Source of the DNA: Sphingomonadaceae bacterium PASS1
Lineage (GTDB): Bacteria > Pseudomonadota > Alphaproteobacteria > Sphingomonadales > Sphingomonadaceae
Length of the DNA: 64,000 nt
Direction of reading: 5' to 3'
Assembly: GCA_002255985.1 (NCBI GenBank)
Contig: NKIR01000014.1
Coordinates: 3,919 to 67,918 of the forward strand
Shown here piece after piece: positions 3,529-64,000 of the stretch; positions within the stretch are counted from its first letter, which is position 1; the number at the start of each line of letters is the position of its first letter. The position numbers were made by a program, and so were the translations under genes. The notes beneath the pieces were generated by a model that did not search any database, had not been told where the DNA came from, and saw only the letters and a list, made by a program, of their open reading frames with translations.

Positions 3529-4434
3529 TTAGACGGTGAGCAGCAACCGCTTTTCACCGGCAATGCGCAGCATCGCTTTTTGTAGCTTTTCAAACGCACG
3601 CACTTCAATCTGGCGCACGCGTTCACGGCTGACGCTGTAAGTCTGGCTGAGTTCTTCGAGCGTTTGCGGCTCTTCAATCAGCCTGCGCTGCGTCAGGATA
3701 TGCTTCTCGCGCTCATTCAGGCTATCCATTGCTTCGGAGAGCAGGGCATGACGCATATCGCCTTCTTGTGCGTCAGCAACGCGTTCGTCCTGCAATGGGG
3801 TGTCGTCGACCAACCAATCCTGCCATTGGCCATCGCCATCCTCGCGCATTGGGACGTTCAGTGAGGTGTCACCGCCCATCGCCATGCGGCGGTTCATATT
3901 GTTCACTTCTTCCTCGGACACGCCAAGGTCGGTGGCAATTTTACGCAAGGCTTCTTGGTTCAGATCGCCATCTTCAAACGCCTGAAGGTTGTTTTTCATA
4001 CGCCGCAGGTTGAAGAACAGCTTTTTCTGCGCGGCGGTCGTGCCGATTTTGACCAGGCTCCAGCTGCGCAGAATGAATTCCTGCATCGACGCGCGAATCC
4101 ACCACATCGCGTAAGTCGCGAGGCGGAAGCCGCGGTCTGGATCGAATTTCTTCACACCTTGCATCAATCCGATGTTGCCTTCGGAAATAAGCTCGGACAC
4201 CGGCAGGCCGTAGCCGCGATAACCCATGGCAATTTTTGATACGAGGCGAAGATGTGACGTCACAAGCTGCTCGGCAGCTTTGGTATCGCCATGTTCTTGA
4301 AAGCGTTTGGCGAGCATATATTCTTGCTCAGGCTTCAAAACTGGAAACTTCCGGATTTCGCTTAGGTAACGGTTAAGGCTCGCGTCCCCCCCAAGGGCAG
4401 GTATTGTAGCCGGAACATTCTTTTTCTCAGACAT
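3529..4434 (-). CDS. rpoH: RNA polymerase sigma-32 factor
   Basis: Sigma70 regions 2 and 4, RpoH box QKKLFFNLRR; GAGG RBS before ATG 4434. Confidence 0.95.
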   Translation of the reverse strand: MSEKKNVPATIPALGGDASLNRYLSEIRKFPVLKPEQEYMLAKRFQEHGDTKAAEQLVTSHLRLVSKIAMGYRGYGLPVSELISEGNIGLMQGVKKFDPDRGFRLATYAMWWIRASMQEFILRSWSLVKIGTTAAQKKLFFNLRRMKNNLQAFEDGDLNQEALRKIATDLGVSEEEVNNMNRRMAMGGDTSLNVPMREDGDGQWQDWLVDDTPLQDERVADAQEGDMRHALLSEAMDSLNEREKHILTQRRLIEEPQTLEELSQTYSVSRERVRQIEVRAFEKLQKAMLRIAGEKRLLLTV

Positions 4435-58241: not shown

Positions 58242-58988
58242 ATGATCTGGTTGGCTGGACTCTTCGCTCTCGTCGCTTTTGTGTACGCCTCGGTCGGCTT
58301 TGGCGGGGGGTCGACCTATACGGCGTTGCTGGCGCTTTGGGGCGTTGATTATCGGCTGATCCCGGTCATTGCATTGTTATGCAATATCATTGTGGTGACA
58401 GGCGGCAGCATCCGCTTCGTACGTGCCGGGTTGGTGTCTTGGCCGCAAGTCATGCCGCTATTGCTGATATCCGCGCCACTCGCGTTCTTGGGCGGGCTTG
58501 TGCCGCTCAAGCAATGGGTTTTCCTGACTATCTTAGGCGGGGCATTGCTTGCGTCTGCCATTGCCCTGTTGCTTCAGCCTGAAAAGCTTTCGGCGCGTAC
58601 GCTGCCCAAGCCATTGCTGTTGGTAATTTCCGGCGGTGTCGGCCTGCTGGCTGGCTTGTCCGGGATTGGCGGCGGGATATTCATGGCACCGATATTGCAC
58701 CTTATCCGCTGGGCAGAGGCACGGCGCATTGCCGCCTTTGCGTCGCTCTACATATTGATCAATTCGGCCGCAGGGCTGGCAGGGCAGGTCATAAAAGCCG
58801 GTGCACAGTCGCTGGCATTGCCCGCGATGGAATATGGCCTGCTACTCGCGGCTGTGCTGGTCGGCGGGCAAATCGGAAGCATATTCGGAATGCGCTATCT
58901 GTCGCCGCGACTTCTGCGCACATTTACCGCAATATTGGTCGGTTACGCCGCGCTGCGGCTGCTTTGGCAGGCGCATGGGCTTTATTAA
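58242..58988 (+). CDS. TauE/SafE family exporter
   Basis: GFGGGSTY and GIGGGIF repeats, about 8 TM segments. Confidence 0.88.
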   Translation: MIWLAGLFALVAFVYASVGFGGGSTYTALLALWGVDYRLIPVIALLCNIIVVTGGSIRFVRAGLVSWPQVMPLLLISAPLAFLGGLVPLKQWVFLTILGGALLASAIALLLQPEKLSARTLPKPLLLVISGGVGLLAGLSGIGGGIFMAPILHLIRWAEARRIAAFASLYILINSAAGLAGQVIKAGAQSLALPAMEYGLLLAAVLVGGQIGSIFGMRYLSPRLLRTFTAILVGYAALRLLWQAHGLY

Positions 58989-59007
58989 CATTATGAGCCA
59001 GAAAAAA

Positions 59008-59019
59008 TGGCTCCCCGGG
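59008..59019 (-). mobile_element. att core: duplicated 3' end of tRNA-Asn
   Basis: TGGCTCCCCGGG is the reverse complement of CCCGGGGAGCCA, a CCA-ending 3' end typical of alphaproteobacterial tRNA-Asn; the rest of the tRNA is absent. Confidence 0.72.
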
Positions 59020-59040
59020 AGGGACCAATATAACTTTCTA

Positions 59041-59137: not shown

Positions 59138-59160
59138 AAAGTGTACCCAAAGTGTATCCC
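59138..59160 (+). repeat. Putative integrase arm-binding direct repeats
   Basis: AAAGTGTACCC-AAAGTGTATCCC tandem repeat, 30 bp before the integrase ATG. Confidence 0.6.
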
Positions 59161-59190: not shown

Positions 59191-60441
59191 ATGGCGCTAA
59201 TGACAGACTTGGCTATTCGGAACTGGAAGCCGACGAAGCCACGTGAGACAAAACCCTGTGGCGGGCGAGATGGGTTATACATTCGTGCTAACTCGGCCGG
59301 TGGCAAAGCGTTCTATTGGCGCAAAACGTCATTCTATCGATTGGGCGATTATCCAGAGCTTACACTGACAAAGGCGCGGGCAATGGCGGCCGTTTGTAAT
59401 GATCGAGCGCGGGCAGGTATAGCGCCTGAGGCAATCGTTGCAGCCTTACGAGGTACAACGGCTCTGGCTGATGTTGCTGACGCTGACGCTGAGGCGATAA
59501 TGGCCTTACCCAAGTCGCGTTTGCGAACAAAAGCTGCGGACACTGGAAAGCCAACATTCGATTGTGCATTCTTCGAGTTCTATGAGGCTTACGCCAAATC
59601 AAATCGCCAAGCGGGCCCCAGCCGTAAACAGCCACTCAGCCTGCATCGCGATCATGTCCCTCAAGCCCTAAAGCTGATGGCGATGGATGAGATCAAGCGA
59701 TCGGACATTTTCCCTTGGATGCTGAAGCTGCTCAAGGAGAAGCATGAGACGGGTCGCAGATTGCGCAATCAGTTGGAGCGCGTGTTCGAGTTTGCGATCA
59801 ACAATGGCTATTGCGATGCGAACCCAGTGCCCAATAGGCGGGCTTTTGAAATTAAGAAGCCGAAAGCCAATGCTCACGGCACCCTCGATTATACAAGGCT
59901 ACCTGACCTGTGGGCGTGGGTTGATACGCGTGATTTCTTGCCACAAACACGCGCTGCAATAAGGCTGCTTATGCTGTCGGCGCATCGTGTCAGTGTTGTC
60001 CTTGCTGCGCGCTGGGAGCATTTTGACCTTGAAGCCTGCACTTGGACTGTTCCAGCTAAGACTGACAATGAAACGCCGGGCTTAATGAAGTCGGGCAGGG
60101 CGCATACCATCACTCTACCGAGGGCGTTTTTGGATGAGCTAAAGGCTATGAAGCGCGATGAGCGTTTGCTTTTCCCCTCAACGTCAGGCCGCGGGCATCT
60201 GACAGAGAACGCCCTGCTAAAAGCGCTAAAGACCTATGATGAGGGTATCACCGCCCACGGGTTCAGGAATACCTTCAAAACTTGGGCGCGTTCTGTAGGC
60301 GTCGCTGACTGGATAGCAGATGCATATGTGGACCATAGTCTGAAGGGACTTGACGCATCATACCGCCGCGAAGATCCTGCGCGTGTTATCGCTGAATGTG
60401 CTGCAGTTACGGAGAGGTTGTACAAATATGTCCGTGGGTAA
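59191..60441 (+). CDS. P4-like tyrosine integrase with arm-binding domain
   Basis: LTD..IR..KP...DGLY arm domain; catalytic R (AHRVS), HGFR, H (VDHSL) and Y (ASYRR). Confidence 0.93.
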   Translation: MALMTDLAIRNWKPTKPRETKPCGGRDGLYIRANSAGGKAFYWRKTSFYRLGDYPELTLTKARAMAAVCNDRARAGIAPEAIVAALRGTTALADVADADAEAIMALPKSRLRTKAADTGKPTFDCAFFEFYEAYAKSNRQAGPSRKQPLSLHRDHVPQALKLMAMDEIKRSDIFPWMLKLLKEKHETGRRLRNQLERVFEFAINNGYCDANPVPNRRAFEIKKPKANAHGTLDYTRLPDLWAWVDTRDFLPQTRAAIRLLMLSAHRVSVVLAARWEHFDLEACTWTVPAKTDNETPGLMKSGRAHTITLPRAFLDELKAMKRDERLLFPSTSGRGHLTENALLKALKTYDEGITAHGFRNTFKTWARSVGVADWIADAYVDHSLKGLDASYRREDPARVIAECAAVTERLYKYVRG

Positions 60442-60982
60442 GCGCCTTGAACGCGAAAGGCTGGAGCGCATCGAGATACTGCGCGGCGATATTGAGAAGC
60501 GAGGCATCGACGCTGCAATTGACTACGCAAAAAGCCGTTTGAATAAGGTGCCCAAGCACGGGGCTTTCGATGGTCTTCGGGAACCAATGCTAAATGCATC
60601 GCTTAACCTTGGAACCCTGACAGAATCGCAACTGGAAGAATTGCTAAAACAGCCCCAGCGCCATGATGAAATTCGTGATTGGTTAGCAAGGAATCTCGAC
60701 CATATTAACCCTGTCATTCGGGCAGTGACAGCCAAGGTTCTGAAGGGAGAACTTATTAGTTCTTCGAGATCGGGCCCGAAAACAAAGGCAGACCCAGTTT
60801 TCCAATTTGCAGCATGGCAGATTGCCTCCGATTTGAAGGAACTCGGGTATGCAATGTCTCAAGGTGAGCCAGCCAATTATGAGCACTTCACTGCTGCTGA
60901 AGTCATCGCAACCGCGGCGGGGGTCTCCGCAAGCCTTGTGCGAGATTGGATCGCGGCAGGACAAAAACTGGCGGTAAGTTAA
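60428..60982 (+). CDS. Hypothetical protein with possible C-terminal HTH
   Basis: ORF overlaps the integrase end; C-terminal AAEVIATAAGVSASLVRDW resembles an HTH. Confidence 0.65.
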   Translation: MSVGKRLERERLERIEILRGDIEKRGIDAAIDYAKSRLNKVPKHGAFDGLREPMLNASLNLGTLTESQLEELLKQPQRHDEIRDWLARNLDHINPVIRAVTAKVLKGELISSSRSGPKTKADPVFQFAAWQIASDLKELGYAMSQGEPANYEHFTAAEVIATAAGVSASLVRDWIAAGQKLAVS

Positions 60983-61049
60983 TGTTCTACTATAGTTAAA
61001 AACCGTGTTTAGAAGGTGAGACTGTCTTTAAATCCGAAAGGAGACAGTC

Positions 61050-61238
61050 ATGAGTACCGAGTACCTTTTAACTATCGATGAAGCCGCAGATCGGCTTCGC
61101 GTCCACAGAAGTTATGTGTATAAATTAATCTATGCAGGCGTTCTGCCTCAACCAATAAAGTTGGGTCGTGCTGCTCGCTTCAAGGCAAGCGAGTTGGATC
61201 AGGCCATATGCGCTCTTTCAACAGAACACGCTCAATAA
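61050..61238 (+). CDS. AlpA/excisionase-type HTH regulator
   Basis: LLTIDEAADRLRVHRSYVYKLI..G.LP.PIKLGRAARF; AAGGAG RBS. Confidence 0.9.
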   Translation: MSTEYLLTIDEAADRLRVHRSYVYKLIYAGVLPQPIKLGRAARFKASELDQAICALSTEHAQ

Positions 61239-61339
61239 CAAAAACCCGCACTGGATTAGCAGCGCGGGTCGAAGATGCTTGGTAGCCTCTTCTGTATACT
61301 GCGGCCTGCTGATCCTTGCAAGAATCAAGGTCTATCATC

Positions 61340-63739
61340 ATGCATAATCAAAACGAGATAGCACACGCTGCTGTCCAATACGCCGAGCGCGGCTGGCATG
61401 TGTTTCCAGTCCCTCCCGGTACGAAGAAGAGCTACCTGTCCAAAAAGCATTCCGGCGGGCGCAACTGGGGCGCATCGGCTGACGTGTCTGGAGTAAAGCG
61501 CACATTCAAGAAATACCCTAAGGCCAACGTTGGAATTGTATGCGGACCAGACTCTGGGTTCTTTGTAATCGAAGCCGATACGGTCGAAGGACATAACGTA
61601 GACGGCGTTCGCAATCTTGCTGCGCTGTTTGAAGCGCACAGCCCTATTCCGGAAACGGTGACGGCGCGCTCTCCCAGCGGCTCGATGCATTACTATTTCC
61701 GTTGGCCTGAAGGGGTAGCAATCAAAAACAGTGCAGGCCAAATAGCTGTCGGTGTGGACGTTCGTGGTGATGGCGGGATGGTAATTGGCGTGCCTAGCGT
61801 CAAGCCGGGCTGCACAGCGCCTTATATGTGGCTGAACTCGCCAGAGACGACTGAATTGGCCGATTGTCCGGACTGGCTTCTGCAAATGTGCCTGAAGCCG
61901 GATAAGGTCAAAGTGGACCGCCAGCCGCCGACTAAGGCCGAACCAGTTGTGGATGATGCCACACGTTGGGCAGCAACAGCACTGCGTGAAGAGGTCGTCG
62001 CCGTTGAAATGGCGCAGGATGGGCAGCGAAACGCTCAGTTGAATAAGTCGGCGTTTAGTCTGGGCCAGATTGTCGGTGGCGGATATTTGGACGGACAGAC
62101 GGTCATCGCTGCGCTCACTAACGCTGCTTTGGCTGCTGGCCTTGATGACGCAGAGACGCGCGCAACGATCGAGAGCGGTATGGCGGCTGGATCAGATCAT
62201 CCGCGTGGACCCGCGATTGAAGTGCCAGCGCGATCTTTTGAGGAGATGATGGCACATGCAGGGACGCTCACAGAGGACGATTTAGACGAGGCGGGTGAAT
62301 TGGCTAACGAGGCCTACAATCTCCCATCTACCCGCCGTGAAGTAGTCCTGAAGGCTATTAAAATGGCGACGGGCATCTCATTAGCGGCTTTGCGTGAGTT
62401 TGGCGCGGCTGACCGTGCAGAACAATATGCGTCGGCTAATCCAGAGCCAGACCACCTTGACCTAGCTCGGGCGGTAATTGAACGGATAGGGCCACAGAAC
62501 ATCGTCGTGGATGGCGCTGGGTTCTGGCAATGGCGCGATAAGGGCGTTTGGCAACTTCAAGAAGAGGCTGTGCTTAAACAGGCGATCCAGTATGTGTTGG
62601 AGGAGCAAGGCGAGCGGGTTATAGCTAACACAGTTTCCGGGGTATCAACGACCTTGCGAAGCTACGCCTTTCAAAGAGACCATCGTTTTGACATCGGCAA
62701 TCCAGAGACAATTAACTGCCTGAACGGCCAGTTGGAACTGGACTGGTTGGGTGGCGAATTGGTTCCGCACAATCGTGAAGATTACCGAACGACGCAGATA
62801 CCTGTTGTCTACGATCACAGCGCGAAAGCTCCAATGTTCATGCAGTTTCTGGACGATGTGTTCCGGGACGATGAGGATAAAGAAGCCAAGAAGAAATCCC
62901 TTCTTGAGTTGATTGGCTACACGTTGACGTCCCATGCTCGCCATGAGAAGTTTGCTATCCTGATAGGCTCTGGGGCTAACGGCAAAAGCGTTCTGCTATC
63001 GGTCTTGGAGGCGCTCTGCGGGCATGAAAACGTGGCGGGTGTTCAGCCGAGCAACTTCGACAATAAGTTTCAGCGAGCGCATCTGCATGGCAAGTTGGCA
63101 AATATCGTCACGGAGCTAAGGCAGGGAGAAACCATTGCAGATGCGGAACTGAAGGCGATCACGTCAGGCGAACCAGCGACGGTTGAGCATAAGCACCAAA
63201 CGCCTTTCGTGATGAGGCCCTTTTCTACCTGTTGGTTCGGAACTAATCACATGCCGCACACGCGGGACTTCAGTCCGGCGTTGTTTAGGCGTGCCATCAT
63301 CTTGCGCTTCGGCCGGACGTTCGCAACGCATGAGCAAGACCCGAATTTAAAAGACAAGCTGATGACCGAACTGCCCGGTATATTGAACGAAGCGATCTGG
63401 GCGTACGAGCAAGCGGTGCTGGGCGGTAACGGCTTCACTGAAGCACCGTCATCGGTTGAAGAAAAGAAGGCTTGGCGCTTAGAGGCGGATCAGGTGGCGG
63501 GGTTTGTTGATGAATGCTGTTTCCGTGAACCTAATGGTGTGGTTCCGATTGGCGAACTATTTACGCTTTACGTGGACTGGGCAAAAGGTAGTGGCATTAA
63601 GCAAACGCTCAACAAGAAAAACTTCCGGTCGCGGCTCGATAACTTGGGTTTCCAGAAGGGGCCGAGGCGAGAGGCCCGATCAGTGTTGGGGCTGCAAATC
63701 GACCCAGTGACGCGAGCTGAGTTGGGGGGCTTCTATTAG
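61340..63739 (+). CDS. Bifunctional primase-polymerase fused to D5/SF3 helicase
   Basis: Prim-Pol N-terminus (GWHVFP, FVIEAD, SPSGSMHYYF, DVRGDGG), PriCT-like RN.QLN.SAF.LG, D5_N INCLNG, Walker A GSGANGKS. Confidence 0.92.
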   Translation: MHNQNEIAHAAVQYAERGWHVFPVPPGTKKSYLSKKHSGGRNWGASADVSGVKRTFKKYPKANVGIVCGPDSGFFVIEADTVEGHNVDGVRNLAALFEAHSPIPETVTARSPSGSMHYYFRWPEGVAIKNSAGQIAVGVDVRGDGGMVIGVPSVKPGCTAPYMWLNSPETTELADCPDWLLQMCLKPDKVKVDRQPPTKAEPVVDDATRWAATALREEVVAVEMAQDGQRNAQLNKSAFSLGQIVGGGYLDGQTVIAALTNAALAAGLDDAETRATIESGMAAGSDHPRGPAIEVPARSFEEMMAHAGTLTEDDLDEAGELANEAYNLPSTRREVVLKAIKMATGISLAALREFGAADRAEQYASANPEPDHLDLARAVIERIGPQNIVVDGAGFWQWRDKGVWQLQEEAVLKQAIQYVLEEQGERVIANTVSGVSTTLRSYAFQRDHRFDIGNPETINCLNGQLELDWLGGELVPHNREDYRTTQIPVVYDHSAKAPMFMQFLDDVFRDDEDKEAKKKSLLELIGYTLTSHARHEKFAILIGSGANGKSVLLSVLEALCGHENVAGVQPSNFDNKFQRAHLHGKLANIVTELRQGETIADAELKAITSGEPATVEHKHQTPFVMRPFSTCWFGTNHMPHTRDFSPALFRRAIILRFGRTFATHEQDPNLKDKLMTELPGILNEAIWAYEQAVLGGNGFTEAPSSVEEKKAWRLEADQVAGFVDECCFREPNGVVPIGELFTLYVDWAKGSGIKQTLNKKNFRSRLDNLGFQKGPRREARSVLGLQIDPVTRAELGGFY

Positions 63740-63743
63740 CGGC

Positions 63744-63844
63744 GTGACGCGTCCCGTGACGCATGTGTTTGGCTCAGGCCAGTGCGCAGTGTCGGTTTTC
63801 GGGCGTTTTTCGTACCAGCGTGACGTATGTGACGCAAGTGACGC
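63744..63844 (+). repeat. Iteron-like GTGACG(C/T) direct repeats (putative origin)
   Basis: Five copies at 63744, 63756, 63820, 63829 and 63838, immediately after the primase stop and followed by an AT-rich tract. Confidence 0.72.
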
Positions 63845-63852
63845 ATCTCAGA

Positions 63853-64000
63853 ACATTATTATGATATTGCAGCAGGTCATAATGTATTATTTTGATTTAT
63901 ATACGCAGGACCTAATTATATTTTATATATGTCGTGCAGTTAGGAAAGGTGGTGAGAATAAAAAAACAACAACACGAAAAACAGAATATCATAATAATGT
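63853..64000. repeat. Perfect inverted repeat of at least 16 bp flanking a 116-bp AT-rich spacer
   Basis: ACATTATTATGATATT (63853-63868) and AATATCATAATAATGT (63985-64000). Confidence 0.85.

What the first reader, a model, noticed from the sequence alone, without database searches (positions are those of the whole stretch)
59191..64000. Phage-satellite (PICI-like) element in a sphingomonad
Seen: int, an unknown ORF, alpA, prim-pol/SF3 helicase and a putative ori, all on one strand, with no cI/cro pair or structural genes so far. Established: this int-alpA-primase core is the layout of Gram-negative PICIs and related minimal satellites, described mostly in Gammaproteobacteria. A Prim-Pol (AEP) rather than a TOPRIM primase and an alphaproteobacterial host make it a candidate for a poorly described satellite or integrative-element family. 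Packaging and cargo genes, if any, lie outside the window.
Basis: partly seen in the sequence, partly recalled or inferred. Interest (0 to 1): 0.72.

Follow-up and report, generated by a model that had tools for sequence, protein, structure and literature searches.

The report
tRNA-Asn island carrying a ubiquitin-like system
This is a real, precisely bounded mobile island inserted in a tRNA-Asn gene; it has the integrase, excisionase and primase core of a phage satellite but no DNA-packaging genes were found, and its cargo is a rare, eukaryote-like ubiquitin-conjugation operon that is probably an anti-phage defence.

Summary
Window 59191-63739 holds, on one strand, a tyrosine integrase, an unknown 184-aa ORF, an excisionase/AlpA-type HTH and a PrimPol/P4-family (D5) primase-helicase, followed by an iteron and AT-rich origin.

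I found both ends. A 20-bp repeat (window 59005-59024) recurs on another contig at the 3' end of tRNA-Asn. A same-genus genome has the exact empty site, TauE next to tRNA-Asn.

The island is at least 10.4 kb, with an unassembled gap; I estimate 12-13 kb in total.

It holds no prophage, conjugation, terminase or capsid genes. The cargo is a CsgG-type lipoprotein operon plus a six-gene ubiquitination operon. That operon encodes a membrane Zn-ribbon protein, a J-domain protein, an E1, an 84-aa ubiquitin-fold protein ending in Gly, a canonical HPN-Cys E2 with a Zn ribbon, and a JAMM peptidase.

The integration trio occurs elsewhere with three unrelated replicases and with other defence-like cargo. 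A complete 12.7-kb sibling also lacks packaging genes. More distant primase relatives do carry TerS, TerL or capsid genes.

Verdict: a satellite-like, helper-dependent island. PICI membership is not shown, because no packaging module was found. It is a new variant of known kinds, and its cargo is the most interesting part.

The parts
58242..58988 (+). Left chromosomal flank: TauE/SafE-family exporter gene. It is not part of the island.
   Evidence: Pfam TauE 1.9e-28. It is conserved in 55 of 60 genus genomes. In G049 it lies directly beside tRNA-Asn.
59005..59024 (.). attL core, AAATGGCTCCCCGGGAGGGA. It is a copy of the last 17 nt of tRNA-Asn(GTT), read on the minus strand, plus 3 nt. The identical 20-mer lies at C17:4026-4045, inside the intact tRNA-Asn (attR).
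   Evidence: An exact-word search of the whole genome found this as the only other copy. ARAGORN and Rfam place tRNA-Asn at C17 4030-4104 on the minus strand. A three-way alignment with the empty site of G049 confirms the join (A1).
59141..59160 (+). Candidate arm-type integrase-binding repeats, GTGTACCCAAAGTGTATCCC. The motif CCAAAGTGTA recurs about 60 bp inside attR (L002 3962-3971).
   Evidence: The motif occurs once at each end of the island. It occurs at the equivalent places in siblings L045-47, L048, L055 and L056. Its function is inferred.
59191..60441 (+). Tyrosine integrase, 416 aa, of the P4/arm-binding type.
   Evidence: Pfam hits. The catalytic R-K-HxxR-H-Y residues are invariant in alignment A5. 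Homologues of 416 aa occur in L043, L045 and L055.
60428..60982 (+). ORF184, a family-specific gene always found between int and the HTH gene. It is all-helical with a probable C-terminal HTH. Function is unknown; a regulator is my guess.
   Evidence: Ten homologue clusters, all 184 aa and 67-96% identical. No Pfam, PHROG, PADLOC or NCBIfam hit. The AF2 model has pLDDT 67 and finds no fold match.
61050..61238 (+). Excisionase/AlpA-type HTH protein, 62 aa.
   Evidence: HTH_17 2.3e-12 and Phage_AlpA 4e-4, the latter just below its cut-off. TIGR01764 excisionase family scores above its cut-off.
61316..63739 (+). Primase-helicase, 807 aa: an N-terminal AEP Prim-Pol domain plus a D5_N/DUF5906/Pox_D5 SF3 helicase (P4-family primase C-terminal domain).
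   Evidence: Pfam. PHROG 1156 DNA primase 1e-104. TIGR01613 at 200 bits. A copy 98% identical in DNA sits behind an unrelated int module in L020.
63707..64000 (.). Candidate replication origin. It has six direct GTGACGC(A/G) iterons (63707-63845) and an AT-rich stretch with a perfect 17-bp inverted repeat. It continues to about 64025, beyond the window, where two inverted iterons lie.
   Evidence: The region is conserved at 86-88% in L043. Function is inferred.

Best explanation
**What it is**
The finding is the left 5 kb of a genomic island integrated by a tyrosine recombinase into the 3' end of tRNA-Asn(GTT). The island runs from window 59005, off the end of contig C21, across an unassembled gap, and through C17:1-4045. 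At least 10.4 kb is assembled, and I estimate 12-13 kb in total.

**Shown**
- A 20-bp att duplication, and an exact empty site in a congener.
- An intact integrase with its catalytic residues.
- An excisionase-type HTH protein.
- A PrimPol/SF3 primase-helicase with an iteron and AT-rich region just downstream.
- No conjugation, relaxase, terminase, capsid, tail or lysis genes in the assembled part.

**Inferred mechanism**
- Int, together with the HTH protein (an Xis/AlpA role), excises the island as a circle.
- The primase-helicase fires the adjacent origin and amplifies it.
- Because the island has no transfer machinery of its own, it moves between cells with a helper. The most likely route is packaging into a helper phage's capsids through a pac/cos-like site, in the manner of a minimalist phage satellite.

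**Cargo**
- A CsgG-type outer-membrane lipoprotein operon.
- A six-gene ubiquitination operon: a membrane Zn-ribbon/OB protein, a J-domain protein, an E1, a Ubl, an E2 with a Zn ribbon, and a JAMM peptidase.
- I infer that the peptidase trims the Ubl to its conserved Gly, and that E1 and E2 conjugate the Ubl to a target. By analogy with Bil systems and from the genomic neighbourhoods, this is probably an anti-phage defence that benefits the host and the island.

**Family**
The island belongs to a modular family. The trio int-ORF184-HTH is fixed, while the replicase and the cargo are swapped.
For: **Boundaries**
- The 20-bp repeat and the tRNA-Asn gene.
- The empty site in G049 equals the two G000 flanks joined.

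**Core genes and origin**
- Gene identities.
- Integrase catalytic residues.
- Arm-type motif at both ends.
- Origin repeats.

**Cargo**
- CsgG, DnaJ, ThiF, UQ_con and JAB domain hits.
- The Ubl model has pLDDT 85 and a beta-grasp fold. TM-score is 0.74-0.79 to ubiquitin, Caldiarchaeum ubiquitin and ISG15.
- The Ubl has an invariant C-terminal LVAG followed by a tail of 0-6 residues.
- The catalytic motifs are all present: E2 HPN86...C96, JAMM H137xH139...S147xxD150, J-domain HPD49, E1 GAGAVG.

**Mobility and modularity**
- The Ub operon is 82% identical in DNA in Novosphingobium arvoryzae. There it sits beside a type III restriction-modification system and has no int or primase nearby.
- The same six-gene operon lies in mobile-element contexts in Mesorhizobium, Paraburkholderia (beside TniB/TniQ) and Pseudooceanicola.
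- The primase is 98% identical in L020 behind a different int module.
- The int-ORF184-HTH trio occurs with three different replicases.

**Satellite-like relatives**
- L013 carries TerS plus DruE.
- L014-L018 carry a TerL-like gene.
- IMG/VR contigs L040-L042 and L037 carry TerL, major capsid, portal or protease genes.

**Absence of own transfer or packaging genes**
-.
- The complete sibling L055 also has none.
Against: - No packaging signal, TerS, capsid-size or helper-interference gene was identified.
- No helper phage is known. The genome shows no TerL_ATPase, HK97 capsid or Terminase_2 match, so there is no resident helper of those types.
- The integration module was not found in IMG/VR.
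- It is rare: 1 of 119 other genus genomes and 0 of 400 family genomes sampled.
- Part of the island is unassembled, so a packaging or mobilisation gene could hide there.
- The defence role of the Ub operon rests on analogy and neighbourhood only. PADLOC gives only weak CBASS Cap2/Cap3-type hits.
Confidence: 0.55

Rival explanations
1. It is a PICI in the strict sense. A terS, ppi/rpp-type or capsid-morphogenesis gene lies in the unassembled gap between C21 and C17, and the island is induced and packaged by a specific helper phage.
For: The layout and size fit. Primase relatives carry TerS, TerL or capsid genes. The gap is unresolved.
Against: The sibling L048 shows that the sequence following CsgG is a 100-aa lipoprotein, DUF4810 and GNA1162-like gene. 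G000's contig ends exactly at the start of that lipoprotein gene, with MKNV against MKNA. The gap is therefore probably filled by that operon and the start of the Ub operon. The complete sibling L055 has no packaging gene. No contig of the genome holds a homologue of the relatives' packaging genes.
Confidence: 0.1
2. It is an integrative, self-replicating island that does not use phages. It would be mobilised by a conjugative element through an oriT-like site, or spread by transformation or vesicles. The primase-helicase would serve only to maintain the excised circle.
For: There are no packaging genes here or in the complete sibling. The integration module is absent from IMG/VR. The replicase is swappable with plasmid-type AAA_25 / PriCT / Toprim replicases. 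The review PMC11389934, listed, argues that many islands are helper-dependent hitchers of several kinds.
Against: No relaxase, T4CP or recognisable oriT was found. The nearest relatives of the primase that have identifiable transfer genes have phage packaging genes, not conjugation genes.
Confidence: 0.25
3. It is a fixed, no longer mobile remnant. Its genes persist only because the cargo is useful.
For: It is rare. No second copy and no circular form was observed. It was found in only one other genome of the genus.
Against: The 20-bp att repeats are perfect and all ORFs are intact. The integrase catalytic residues are conserved. Modules that are 88-98% identical in DNA occur in other assemblies in different combinations, which indicates recent exchange.
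Confidence: 0.1

Closest known systems
Gram-negative PICIs (for example EcCICFT073 and PmCI172; Fillol-Salom et al. 2018, PMC6092414)
   Same: The integrase sits at one end beside a specific att site. An AlpA-type HTH gene lies downstream on the same strand. A primase-helicase follows, with an iteron origin directly after it. The size is about 10-15 kb. There are no structural or lysis genes, and accessory genes lie at the far end.
   Different: No terS, rpp/ppi or capsid-morphogenesis gene was found. The primase domain is an AEP Prim-Pol. The HTH protein scores as excisionase family and falls just below the Pfam AlpA cut-off. No helper and no induction are known.
P4-like satellites
   Same: Integration into the 3' end of a tRNA gene. 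A P4-type arm-binding integrase. A helicase domain of the 'P4 family phage/plasmid primase' (TIGR01613). Variable cargo that is often defence, as in the P4 hotspots (PMC13586616 and PMC8628076, listed).
   Different: No psu, delta, sid or epsilon homologue was found. No TOPRIM primase domain is present. No C4/CI RNA was found (Rfam).
PICMIs of Vibrionaceae (PMC10803314), and marine VEIMEs (PMC9618062)
   Same: A minimal gene set of int, AlpA and primase with no capsid-remodelling genes. VEIMEs include elements integrated in Alphaproteobacteria.
   Different: Those elements were shown to be in virions or to depend on a helper, whereas here nothing is shown. The integration module found here is absent from IMG/VR.
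Bil (bacterial ISG15-like) types I and II and Bub ubiquitination operons (10.1101/2023.09.26.559546; PMC11601603)
   Same: Separate E1, E2, Ubl and JAB/JAMM proteins. The Ubl has a conserved Gly followed by a short tail, which implies trimming by the peptidase. The operons occur sporadically on mobile elements and beside defence genes.
   Different: The gene order is E1-Ubl-E2-DUB, not Ubl-E2-DUB-E1. There are two extra conserved genes, a J-domain protein and a membrane Zn-ribbon/OB protein. The E2 is a canonical UQ_con with the HPN...C motif plus a C-terminal Zn ribbon. There is no DUF6527 gene. By sequence, the best PDB matches are eukaryotic UBA7/UBA1, UBE2A/UBE2N and Rpn11/CSN5, not bacterial chains.
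Caldiarchaeum-type eukaryote-like Ub operon: Ub, E1, E2, small RING protein, Rpn11 (PMC3082918, PMC5654768, PMC6043591)
   Same: A single-domain ubiquitin-fold modifier, with TM-score 0.78-0.79 to Caldiarchaeum ubiquitin. A small E1, a canonical E2 and an Rpn11-like JAMM peptidase. The Caldiarchaeum Rpn11 homologue is among the sequence hits.
   Different: The host is bacterial and the operon is carried on a mobile island. There is no separate RING protein, only Zn ribbons, with weak IBR hits at E of about 3e-3. The J-domain gene is additional.

Membership tests
PICI (Gram-negative type) | Integrase at one end, with a specific att site and flanking direct repeats | tested here: met
   20-bp repeat and an empty site in G049; integrase domains.
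PICI (Gram-negative type) | alpA regulator downstream of int on the same strand | tested here: inconclusive
   HTH_17 2.3e-12 and TIGR01764 excisionase are above their cut-offs. Pfam Phage_AlpA scores 20.6 bits against a cut-off of 21. Position and strand fit.
PICI (Gram-negative type) | Own replication module (primase/helicase) with an adjacent origin | tested here: met
PICI (Gram-negative type) | Packaging or capsid-redirection module (terS, ppi/rpp, cpm or capsid genes) | tested here: not met
   No hit in the 10.4 kb assembled or in any contig of the genome. None in the complete sibling L055. Caveat: a gap of about 2 kb is unassembled.
PICI (Gram-negative type) | Induction by, and packaging into the particles of, a helper phage | not testable with these tools
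PICI (Gram-negative type) | Size about 7-18 kb, with no phage structural or lysis genes | tested here: met
   At least 10.4 kb, estimated 12-13 kb. No structural genes.
P4-like satellite | psu, delta and sid capsid-size and transactivation genes | tested here: not met
   No PHROG or Pfam hit to these among the island's ORFs.
P4-like satellite | Alpha-type primase-helicase (TOPRIM plus a P4-family helicase) | tested here: inconclusive
   The helicase half is met (TIGR01613, 200 bits). The primase half is AEP Prim-Pol, not TOPRIM.
Bil (BilABCD) ubiquitination-like defence | Separate Ubl, E2, JAB peptidase and E1 genes in one operon | tested here: met
Bil (BilABCD) ubiquitination-like defence | Gene order Ubl-E2-DUB-E1, and protein sequences that fall inside the type I or type II Bil groups | tested here: not met
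   The order here is E1-Ubl-E2-DUB, with two extra conserved genes. There are no PADLOC or NCBIfam system-level hits. No tree with Bil proteins was built.
Bil (BilABCD) ubiquitination-like defence | Protects against phage by conjugating the Ubl to a target | not testable with these tools
   Needs experiments.
Eukaryote-like Ub operon of the Caldiarchaeum type | Ubiquitin-fold modifier, E1, canonical E2 and Rpn11-like JAMM peptidase | tested here: met
Eukaryote-like Ub operon of the Caldiarchaeum type | Small RING-finger E3 | tested here: inconclusive
   Only CxxC...CxxC Zn ribbons were found, on the E2 C-terminus and in ORF248. The IBR hits are weak (E 0.003-0.007, below cut-off).

The most novel reading that the evidence does not exclude
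The island's cargo is a previously uncharacterised type of bacterial ubiquitination system. It is a six-gene operon with a canonical eukaryote-type E2 (HPN-Cys) fused to a Zn ribbon, a small E1, a single-domain ubiquitin, an Rpn11-like peptidase, a J-domain co-chaperone and a membrane Zn-ribbon/OB protein. In this reading it links Ubl conjugation to DnaK/Hsp70 and acts as an anti-phage or anti-helper module. It would be spread by a new family of packaging-gene-free satellites, defined by int-ORF184-excisionase, that exchange replicases and defence cargo.
Probability: 0.3. Interest if true: 0.8.

Novelty: new variant of a known kind. Interest (0 to 1): 0.58.

Why it matters
**The island**
- It gives a clean, testable example of a small, helper-dependent element in a sphingomonad-type Alphaproteobacterium. 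It has both ends, an empty site and modular siblings.
- It belongs to a class of 'hitcher' elements whose way of moving between cells is mostly unknown outside enterobacteria, staphylococci and vibrios.

**The cargo**
- Bacterial ubiquitination systems were only recently shown to be real conjugation machines and phage defences.
- This operon differs from Bil and Bub in gene order and composition. By sequence it looks closer to the eukaryotic and archaeal enzymes, and it is the only variant I saw with a dedicated J-domain protein.
- If it defends against phage, it would add a new system type. It would also offer a small, tractable model for coupling between an E2 and Hsp70.

**Modularity**
- The near-identical modules found in other bacteria in different combinations show how such cargo travels.

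Tried and rejected
**Closing the gap**
- There are no k-mer overlaps between the C21 end, the C17 start or any other contig end.
- The missing N-terminus of ORF248 and the expected DUF4810 and GNA1162 genes are on no other contig.

**Prophage or conjugative element**
- Rejected. No such genes are in the island, and the genome has no TerL_ATPase, Phage_capsid or Terminase_2 match.

**CBASS**
- Rejected. There are only weak Cap2/Cap3-type hits and no CD-NTase.

**Is the gene between int and the HTH gene a shared core gene across all primase relatives?**
- No. The ORFs in that slot are not detectably homologous between module families.

**Function of ORF184**
- The AF2 model has low confidence (pLDDT 67) and Foldseek found nothing.

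**The 145-aa secreted Cys-rich protein beside attR**
- It has no homology to the 145-aa TerL fragment of L013.
- It has weak SNase-like similarity to the Mesorhizobium neighbour (E 6e-4 pairwise), but with GIAARE in place of the catalytic GIDAPE-type motif.

**Other dead ends**
- A Ubl profile search of PDB sequences gave nothing significant; only the fold comparison worked.
- L043, an 88%-identical core, might be a minimal 5-kb element, but its right end and att repeat could not be found.
- L018 looked circularly permuted. It is instead two different elements in tandem.
- The metagenome scan for ORF184 gave only two short or truncated loci.
- The cluster look-up did not name the host.
- The last context look-up returned no DNA.
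Full report
**1. Observation**

The window is G000:C21:3919-67918. All of the following genes lie on the + strand.

| Window position | Gene | Evidence |
|---|---|---|
| 59191-60441 | 416-aa tyrosine integrase | Arm-DNA-bind_3, Phage_int_M and Phage_integrase |
| 60350-60982 (likely start 60428, 184 aa) | ORF without any family hit | No Pfam, PHROG, PADLOC or NCBIfam hit |
| 61050-61238 | 62-aa HTH_17 protein | Excisionase family TIGR01764 above its cut-off; Pfam Phage_AlpA 20.6 bits against a cut-off of 21 |
| 61316-63739 | 807-aa Prim-Pol + D5_N + DUF5906 + Pox_D5 protein | NCBI 'phage/plasmid primase, P4 family' C-terminal model, 200 bits against a cut-off of 108.7; PHROG 1156 at 1e-104 |

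An origin-like region lies directly after the primase stop codon.
- It has six direct GTGACGC(A/G) repeats.
- A 150-bp AT-rich stretch follows, bracketed by a perfect 17-bp inverted repeat.
- Two inverted copies of the repeat come next.
- Eight of the eleven matches in 7.3 kb fall within these 320 bp.

No divergent repressor pair and no structural genes are present.

**2. Boundaries**

The window holds no tRNA. The sequence just left of int, however, looks like a tRNA 3' end.
- A whole-genome word search found that the 20-mer AAATGGCTCCCCGGGAGGGA (window 59005-59024) has exactly one other copy, at C17:4026-4045.
- That copy is the 3' end of an intact minus-strand tRNA-Asn(GTT).
- In the same-genus genome G049, the TauE gene that flanks the island on the left lies 4 nt from tRNA-Asn.
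- A three-way alignment shows that the G049 site equals the left flank of attL joined to the right flank of attR across the 20-bp core.

This is direct evidence for site-specific insertion.

The integrase retains R266, K300, H356, R359, H382 and Y391. The motif CCAAAGTGTA sits inside both ends, and at the same places in sibling elements. I read these as arm-type sites, which is an inference.

**3. Extent and the gap**

- Contig C21 ends 1388 bp after the window. It ends just as a new ORF (MKNV...) begins, after a 321-aa CsgG-family lipoprotein gene.
- C17 begins inside an ORF.
- The two contig ends do not overlap each other or any other contig.
- The missing pieces are on no other contig.

The assembled island is 6.4 + 4.05 = 10.4 kb.

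A sibling element, L048, shares the integration module at 87% DNA identity and CsgG at 91% protein identity. After CsgG it continues with a 100-aa lipoprotein (MKNA...), a DUF4810 gene and a GNA1162-like gene. A near-identical copy of the Ub operon in a metagenome contig has a 229-aa first gene preceded by 265 nt without a called gene. From these two I estimate a gap of about 2 kb and a total of 12-13 kb. This is an inference.

**4. Cargo on the C17 side**

Seven + strand ORFs lie between the contig start and attR.

| Product | Size | Notes |
|---|---|---|
| C-terminal part of a protein that is 248 aa in N. arvoryzae | 168 aa | N-terminal TM helix, linker, CxxC...CxxC Zn ribbon, OB-like C-terminus |
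| J-domain protein | 79 aa | HPD motif intact |
| ThiF-type E1 | 367 aa | GAGAVG motif, two CxxC motifs |
| Ubl | 84 aa | see below |
| UQ_con E2 | 212 aa | canonical HPN86...C96 motif plus a C-terminal CPQC...CPKC Zn ribbon |
| JAB/JAMM peptidase | — | H137xH139...S147xxD150 |
| Secreted Cys-rich protein | 145 aa | PHROG 18798; weak SNase-like similarity |

Evidence that the 84-aa protein is a ubiquitin-like modifier:
- Its model has pLDDT 85 and a beta-grasp fold.
- It matches ubiquitin variants, Caldiarchaeum ubiquitin, the ISG15 C-domain, NEDD8 and SUMO, with Foldseek probability 1.00 and TM-score 0.7-0.8.
- Its five homologues share an invariant C-terminal LEVQPVLVAG followed by 0-6 variable residues. 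This is the pattern of a modifier trimmed by its peptidase.

By sequence, the best solved relatives are eukaryotic or archaeal, not bacterial Bil/Bub chains.
- E1: UBA7, UBA1, SAE2 and UBA3.
- E2: UBE2A, UBE2B and UBE2N.
- Peptidase: Rpn11 and CSN5, including the Caldiarchaeum Rpn11 homologue.

PADLOC gives only weak CBASS Cap2/Cap3-type hits, and NCBIfam gives nothing above its cut-offs.

**5. The Ub operon is itself mobile and rare**

- It is absent from 100 relatives.
- It is 82% identical in DNA over 3.3 kb in Novosphingobium arvoryzae KCTC 32422. There it follows a type III restriction-modification pair and a DUF4268 gene, with no integrase or primase nearby.
- The E2 with its Zn ribbon defines only 47 clusters among 5.8 billion proteins.
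- In Mesorhizobium, Paraburkholderia and Pseudooceanicola the same six-gene order recurs: a variable first gene, then J-domain, E1, Ubl, E2 and JAB.
- Its neighbours there are a VapE-type primase with HNH and SNase genes, Tn7-type TniB/TniQ, or an integrase.

Published Bil operons have the order Ubl-E2-DUB-E1 and four genes. Bub operons have fusions and a DUF6527 protease (10.1101/2023.09.26.559546; PMC11601603). My full-text search found no paper that combined a J domain with such operons. That search covers open-access papers only.

**6. What family is the island?**

Two different module families meet here.

*(a) The replication module*
- Close relatives of the primase are short metagenome contigs.
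- One of them, L020, is 98% identical in DNA from about 40 nt into the gene, yet has an unrelated int / ORF / alpA region upstream. This indicates recent module exchange.
- Relatives at 53-59% identity have the same int / ORF / HTH / primase order and carry packaging genes. L013 has a Terminase_2 small terminase, a TerL fragment and a DruE (Druantia) helicase. L014-L018 have a 467-479-aa TerL-like protein.
- Six IMG/VR contigs of 4-15 kb share the helicase domain at 48-58% identity. Of the four I annotated (L037 and L040-L042), all carry head or packaging genes: L040 and L041 have TerL and a major capsid gene, L042 a protease-capsid fusion, and L037 major capsid, portal and tape-measure genes.
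- This replicase lineage is therefore used by satellite-like and small phage-like elements.

*(b) The integration module*
- int-ORF184-HTH is a tight trio. ORF184 has only ten homologue clusters, all 184 aa.
- It occurs with three different replicases:
  - PrimPol/D5 in L043, which is 88% identical to the G000 core, including the origin.
  - DnaG-Toprim plus AAA_25 in L044-47.
  - PriCT_2 or Toprim plus AAA_25 in L048, L049 and L055.
- Its cargo is defence-like:
  - L048 has the CsgG operon, an 828-aa protein and a trypsin-like protease.
  - L055 is a complete element of about 12.7 kb at tRNA-Ser in a four-contig genome of the same genus. It has an HSDR_N nuclease, an AriA/AAA_15-like ATPase, an SNase and a SHOCT protein.
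- None of these elements has a terminase, capsid, relaxase or T4SS gene.
- The trio was not found in IMG/VR, nor in 400 sampled family genomes. It was found in only 1 of 119 other genus genomes.

**7. Mechanism**

*Shown*
- Insertion at the tRNA-Asn 3' end.
- An intact recombinase, an excisionase-type HTH protein, and a primase-helicase with repeats and an AT-rich region.
- No transfer genes of its own.
- Modular exchange with other elements.

*Inferred*
- Excision by Int together with the HTH protein.
- Replication from the iteron origin by the PrimPol-helicase.
- Transfer with a helper.

I favour phage packaging for the transfer step, in the manner of a minimalist satellite of the PICMI or VEIME type. 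My reasons are the layout, the size, and the fact that the primase's relatives with identifiable transfer genes all carry packaging genes. This step is unproven. Conjugative mobilisation through an oriT-like site is a serious rival.

My probabilities add to 1:
- Helper-dependent, satellite-like island without packaging genes: 0.55.
- Strict PICI with a hidden packaging gene: 0.10.
- Mobilisation without phage: 0.25.
- Immobile remnant: 0.10.

That the region is an integrated island is close to certain.

**8. Comparison and novelty**

- It works like a PICI, P4 or PICMI-type element. It fails the one PICI-defining feature that could be tested, the packaging module, so I do not file it as a PICI.
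- It is not P4-like in the strict sense, because it has no psu, delta or sid and no TOPRIM domain.
- Alphaproteobacterial satellites are already known (VEIMEs, PMC9618062).
- The new points are three: the int-ORF184-excisionase family with swappable replicases, the apparent lack of any packaging gene, and above all the six-gene, eukaryote-like ubiquitination operon with a J-domain as cargo.
- I rate it a new variant of known kinds, with interest 0.58.

**9. Earlier notes of this scan**

All were made on this window, and I checked three of them here.
- The predicted minus-strand tRNA-Asn with the same core exists.
- The iteron array is confirmed.
- The perfect inverted repeat is confirmed.

Noticed in passing
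L034 (G029:C2:412500-428500): In another genome of the genus, the space between tRNA-Asn and TauE holds 11.4 kb of metabolic genes: gamma-glutamyltranspeptidase, a DAO oxidoreductase, LysR, a TonB receptor, an amidohydrolase and a GST. There is no integrase. A 96-nt partial duplicate of the TauE 3' end lies beside the tRNA. This tRNA-Asn site is therefore a hotspot for variable DNA.
   Followed up: partly
L035, L036, L030 (G060, G021, G042): Three further congeners have about 1.3 kb of unexamined sequence between TauE and tRNA-Asn. G049 and G001 have the two genes directly adjacent.
   Followed up: no
G000 contigs C7:14305-15408, C7:169710-171163, C6:9445-10584, C20:3126-4250, C2:211664-212458 and 3588-4334, C15:106994-111143, C17:90314-91981: The same genome holds at least six more P4-type integrases. 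Some come with an AlpA-like gene or an AAA_25/primase replicase, and several lie near contig ends. This suggests several more small integrative replicative elements, which may be why the assembly breaks there.
   Followed up: no
L018 and L017 (JGI 3300025645, ENA ERZ27275056): One int-HTH-PrimPol element, 99.98% identical in the two contigs, sits next to host genes in one contig. In the other it sits directly behind the TerL-250-74 end of a second, diverged element. This indicates tandem satellite-like elements at one site.
   Followed up: partly
L013 (GCA_038921795.1, JBCKXD010000008.1): A primase relative at 56% identity carries a small terminase, a 145-aa TerL ATPase fragment, a 1718-aa DruE-type helicase (PADLOC 3e-83) and an SNF2 protein. 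It is a candidate satellite with Druantia-like cargo.
   Followed up: partly
L002:3426-3863 (C17, just inside attR): A 145-aa protein with a signal peptide and many cysteines matches PHROG 18798 (5e-41, function unknown). It resembles SNase-domain proteins weakly but has GIAARE where the catalytic motif would be. SNase genes also sit near attR of sibling L055 and next to the Ub operon in Mesorhizobium.
   Followed up: partly
L001:6333-7307 (C21 end, beyond the window) and L048:4366-6771: A CsgG / small lipoprotein / DUF4810 / GNA1162-like outer-membrane lipoprotein operon travels as island cargo in two sibling elements that have different replicases. Its role on a mobile element is unknown.
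   Followed up: partly
L005 (Novosphingobium arvoryzae NZ_BMZD01000002.1, 503590-524690): The Ub operon there lies directly after a Sel1-repeat protein, a type III restriction-modification Mod/Res pair and a DUF4268 protein. This is a defence-island setting.
   Followed up: partly
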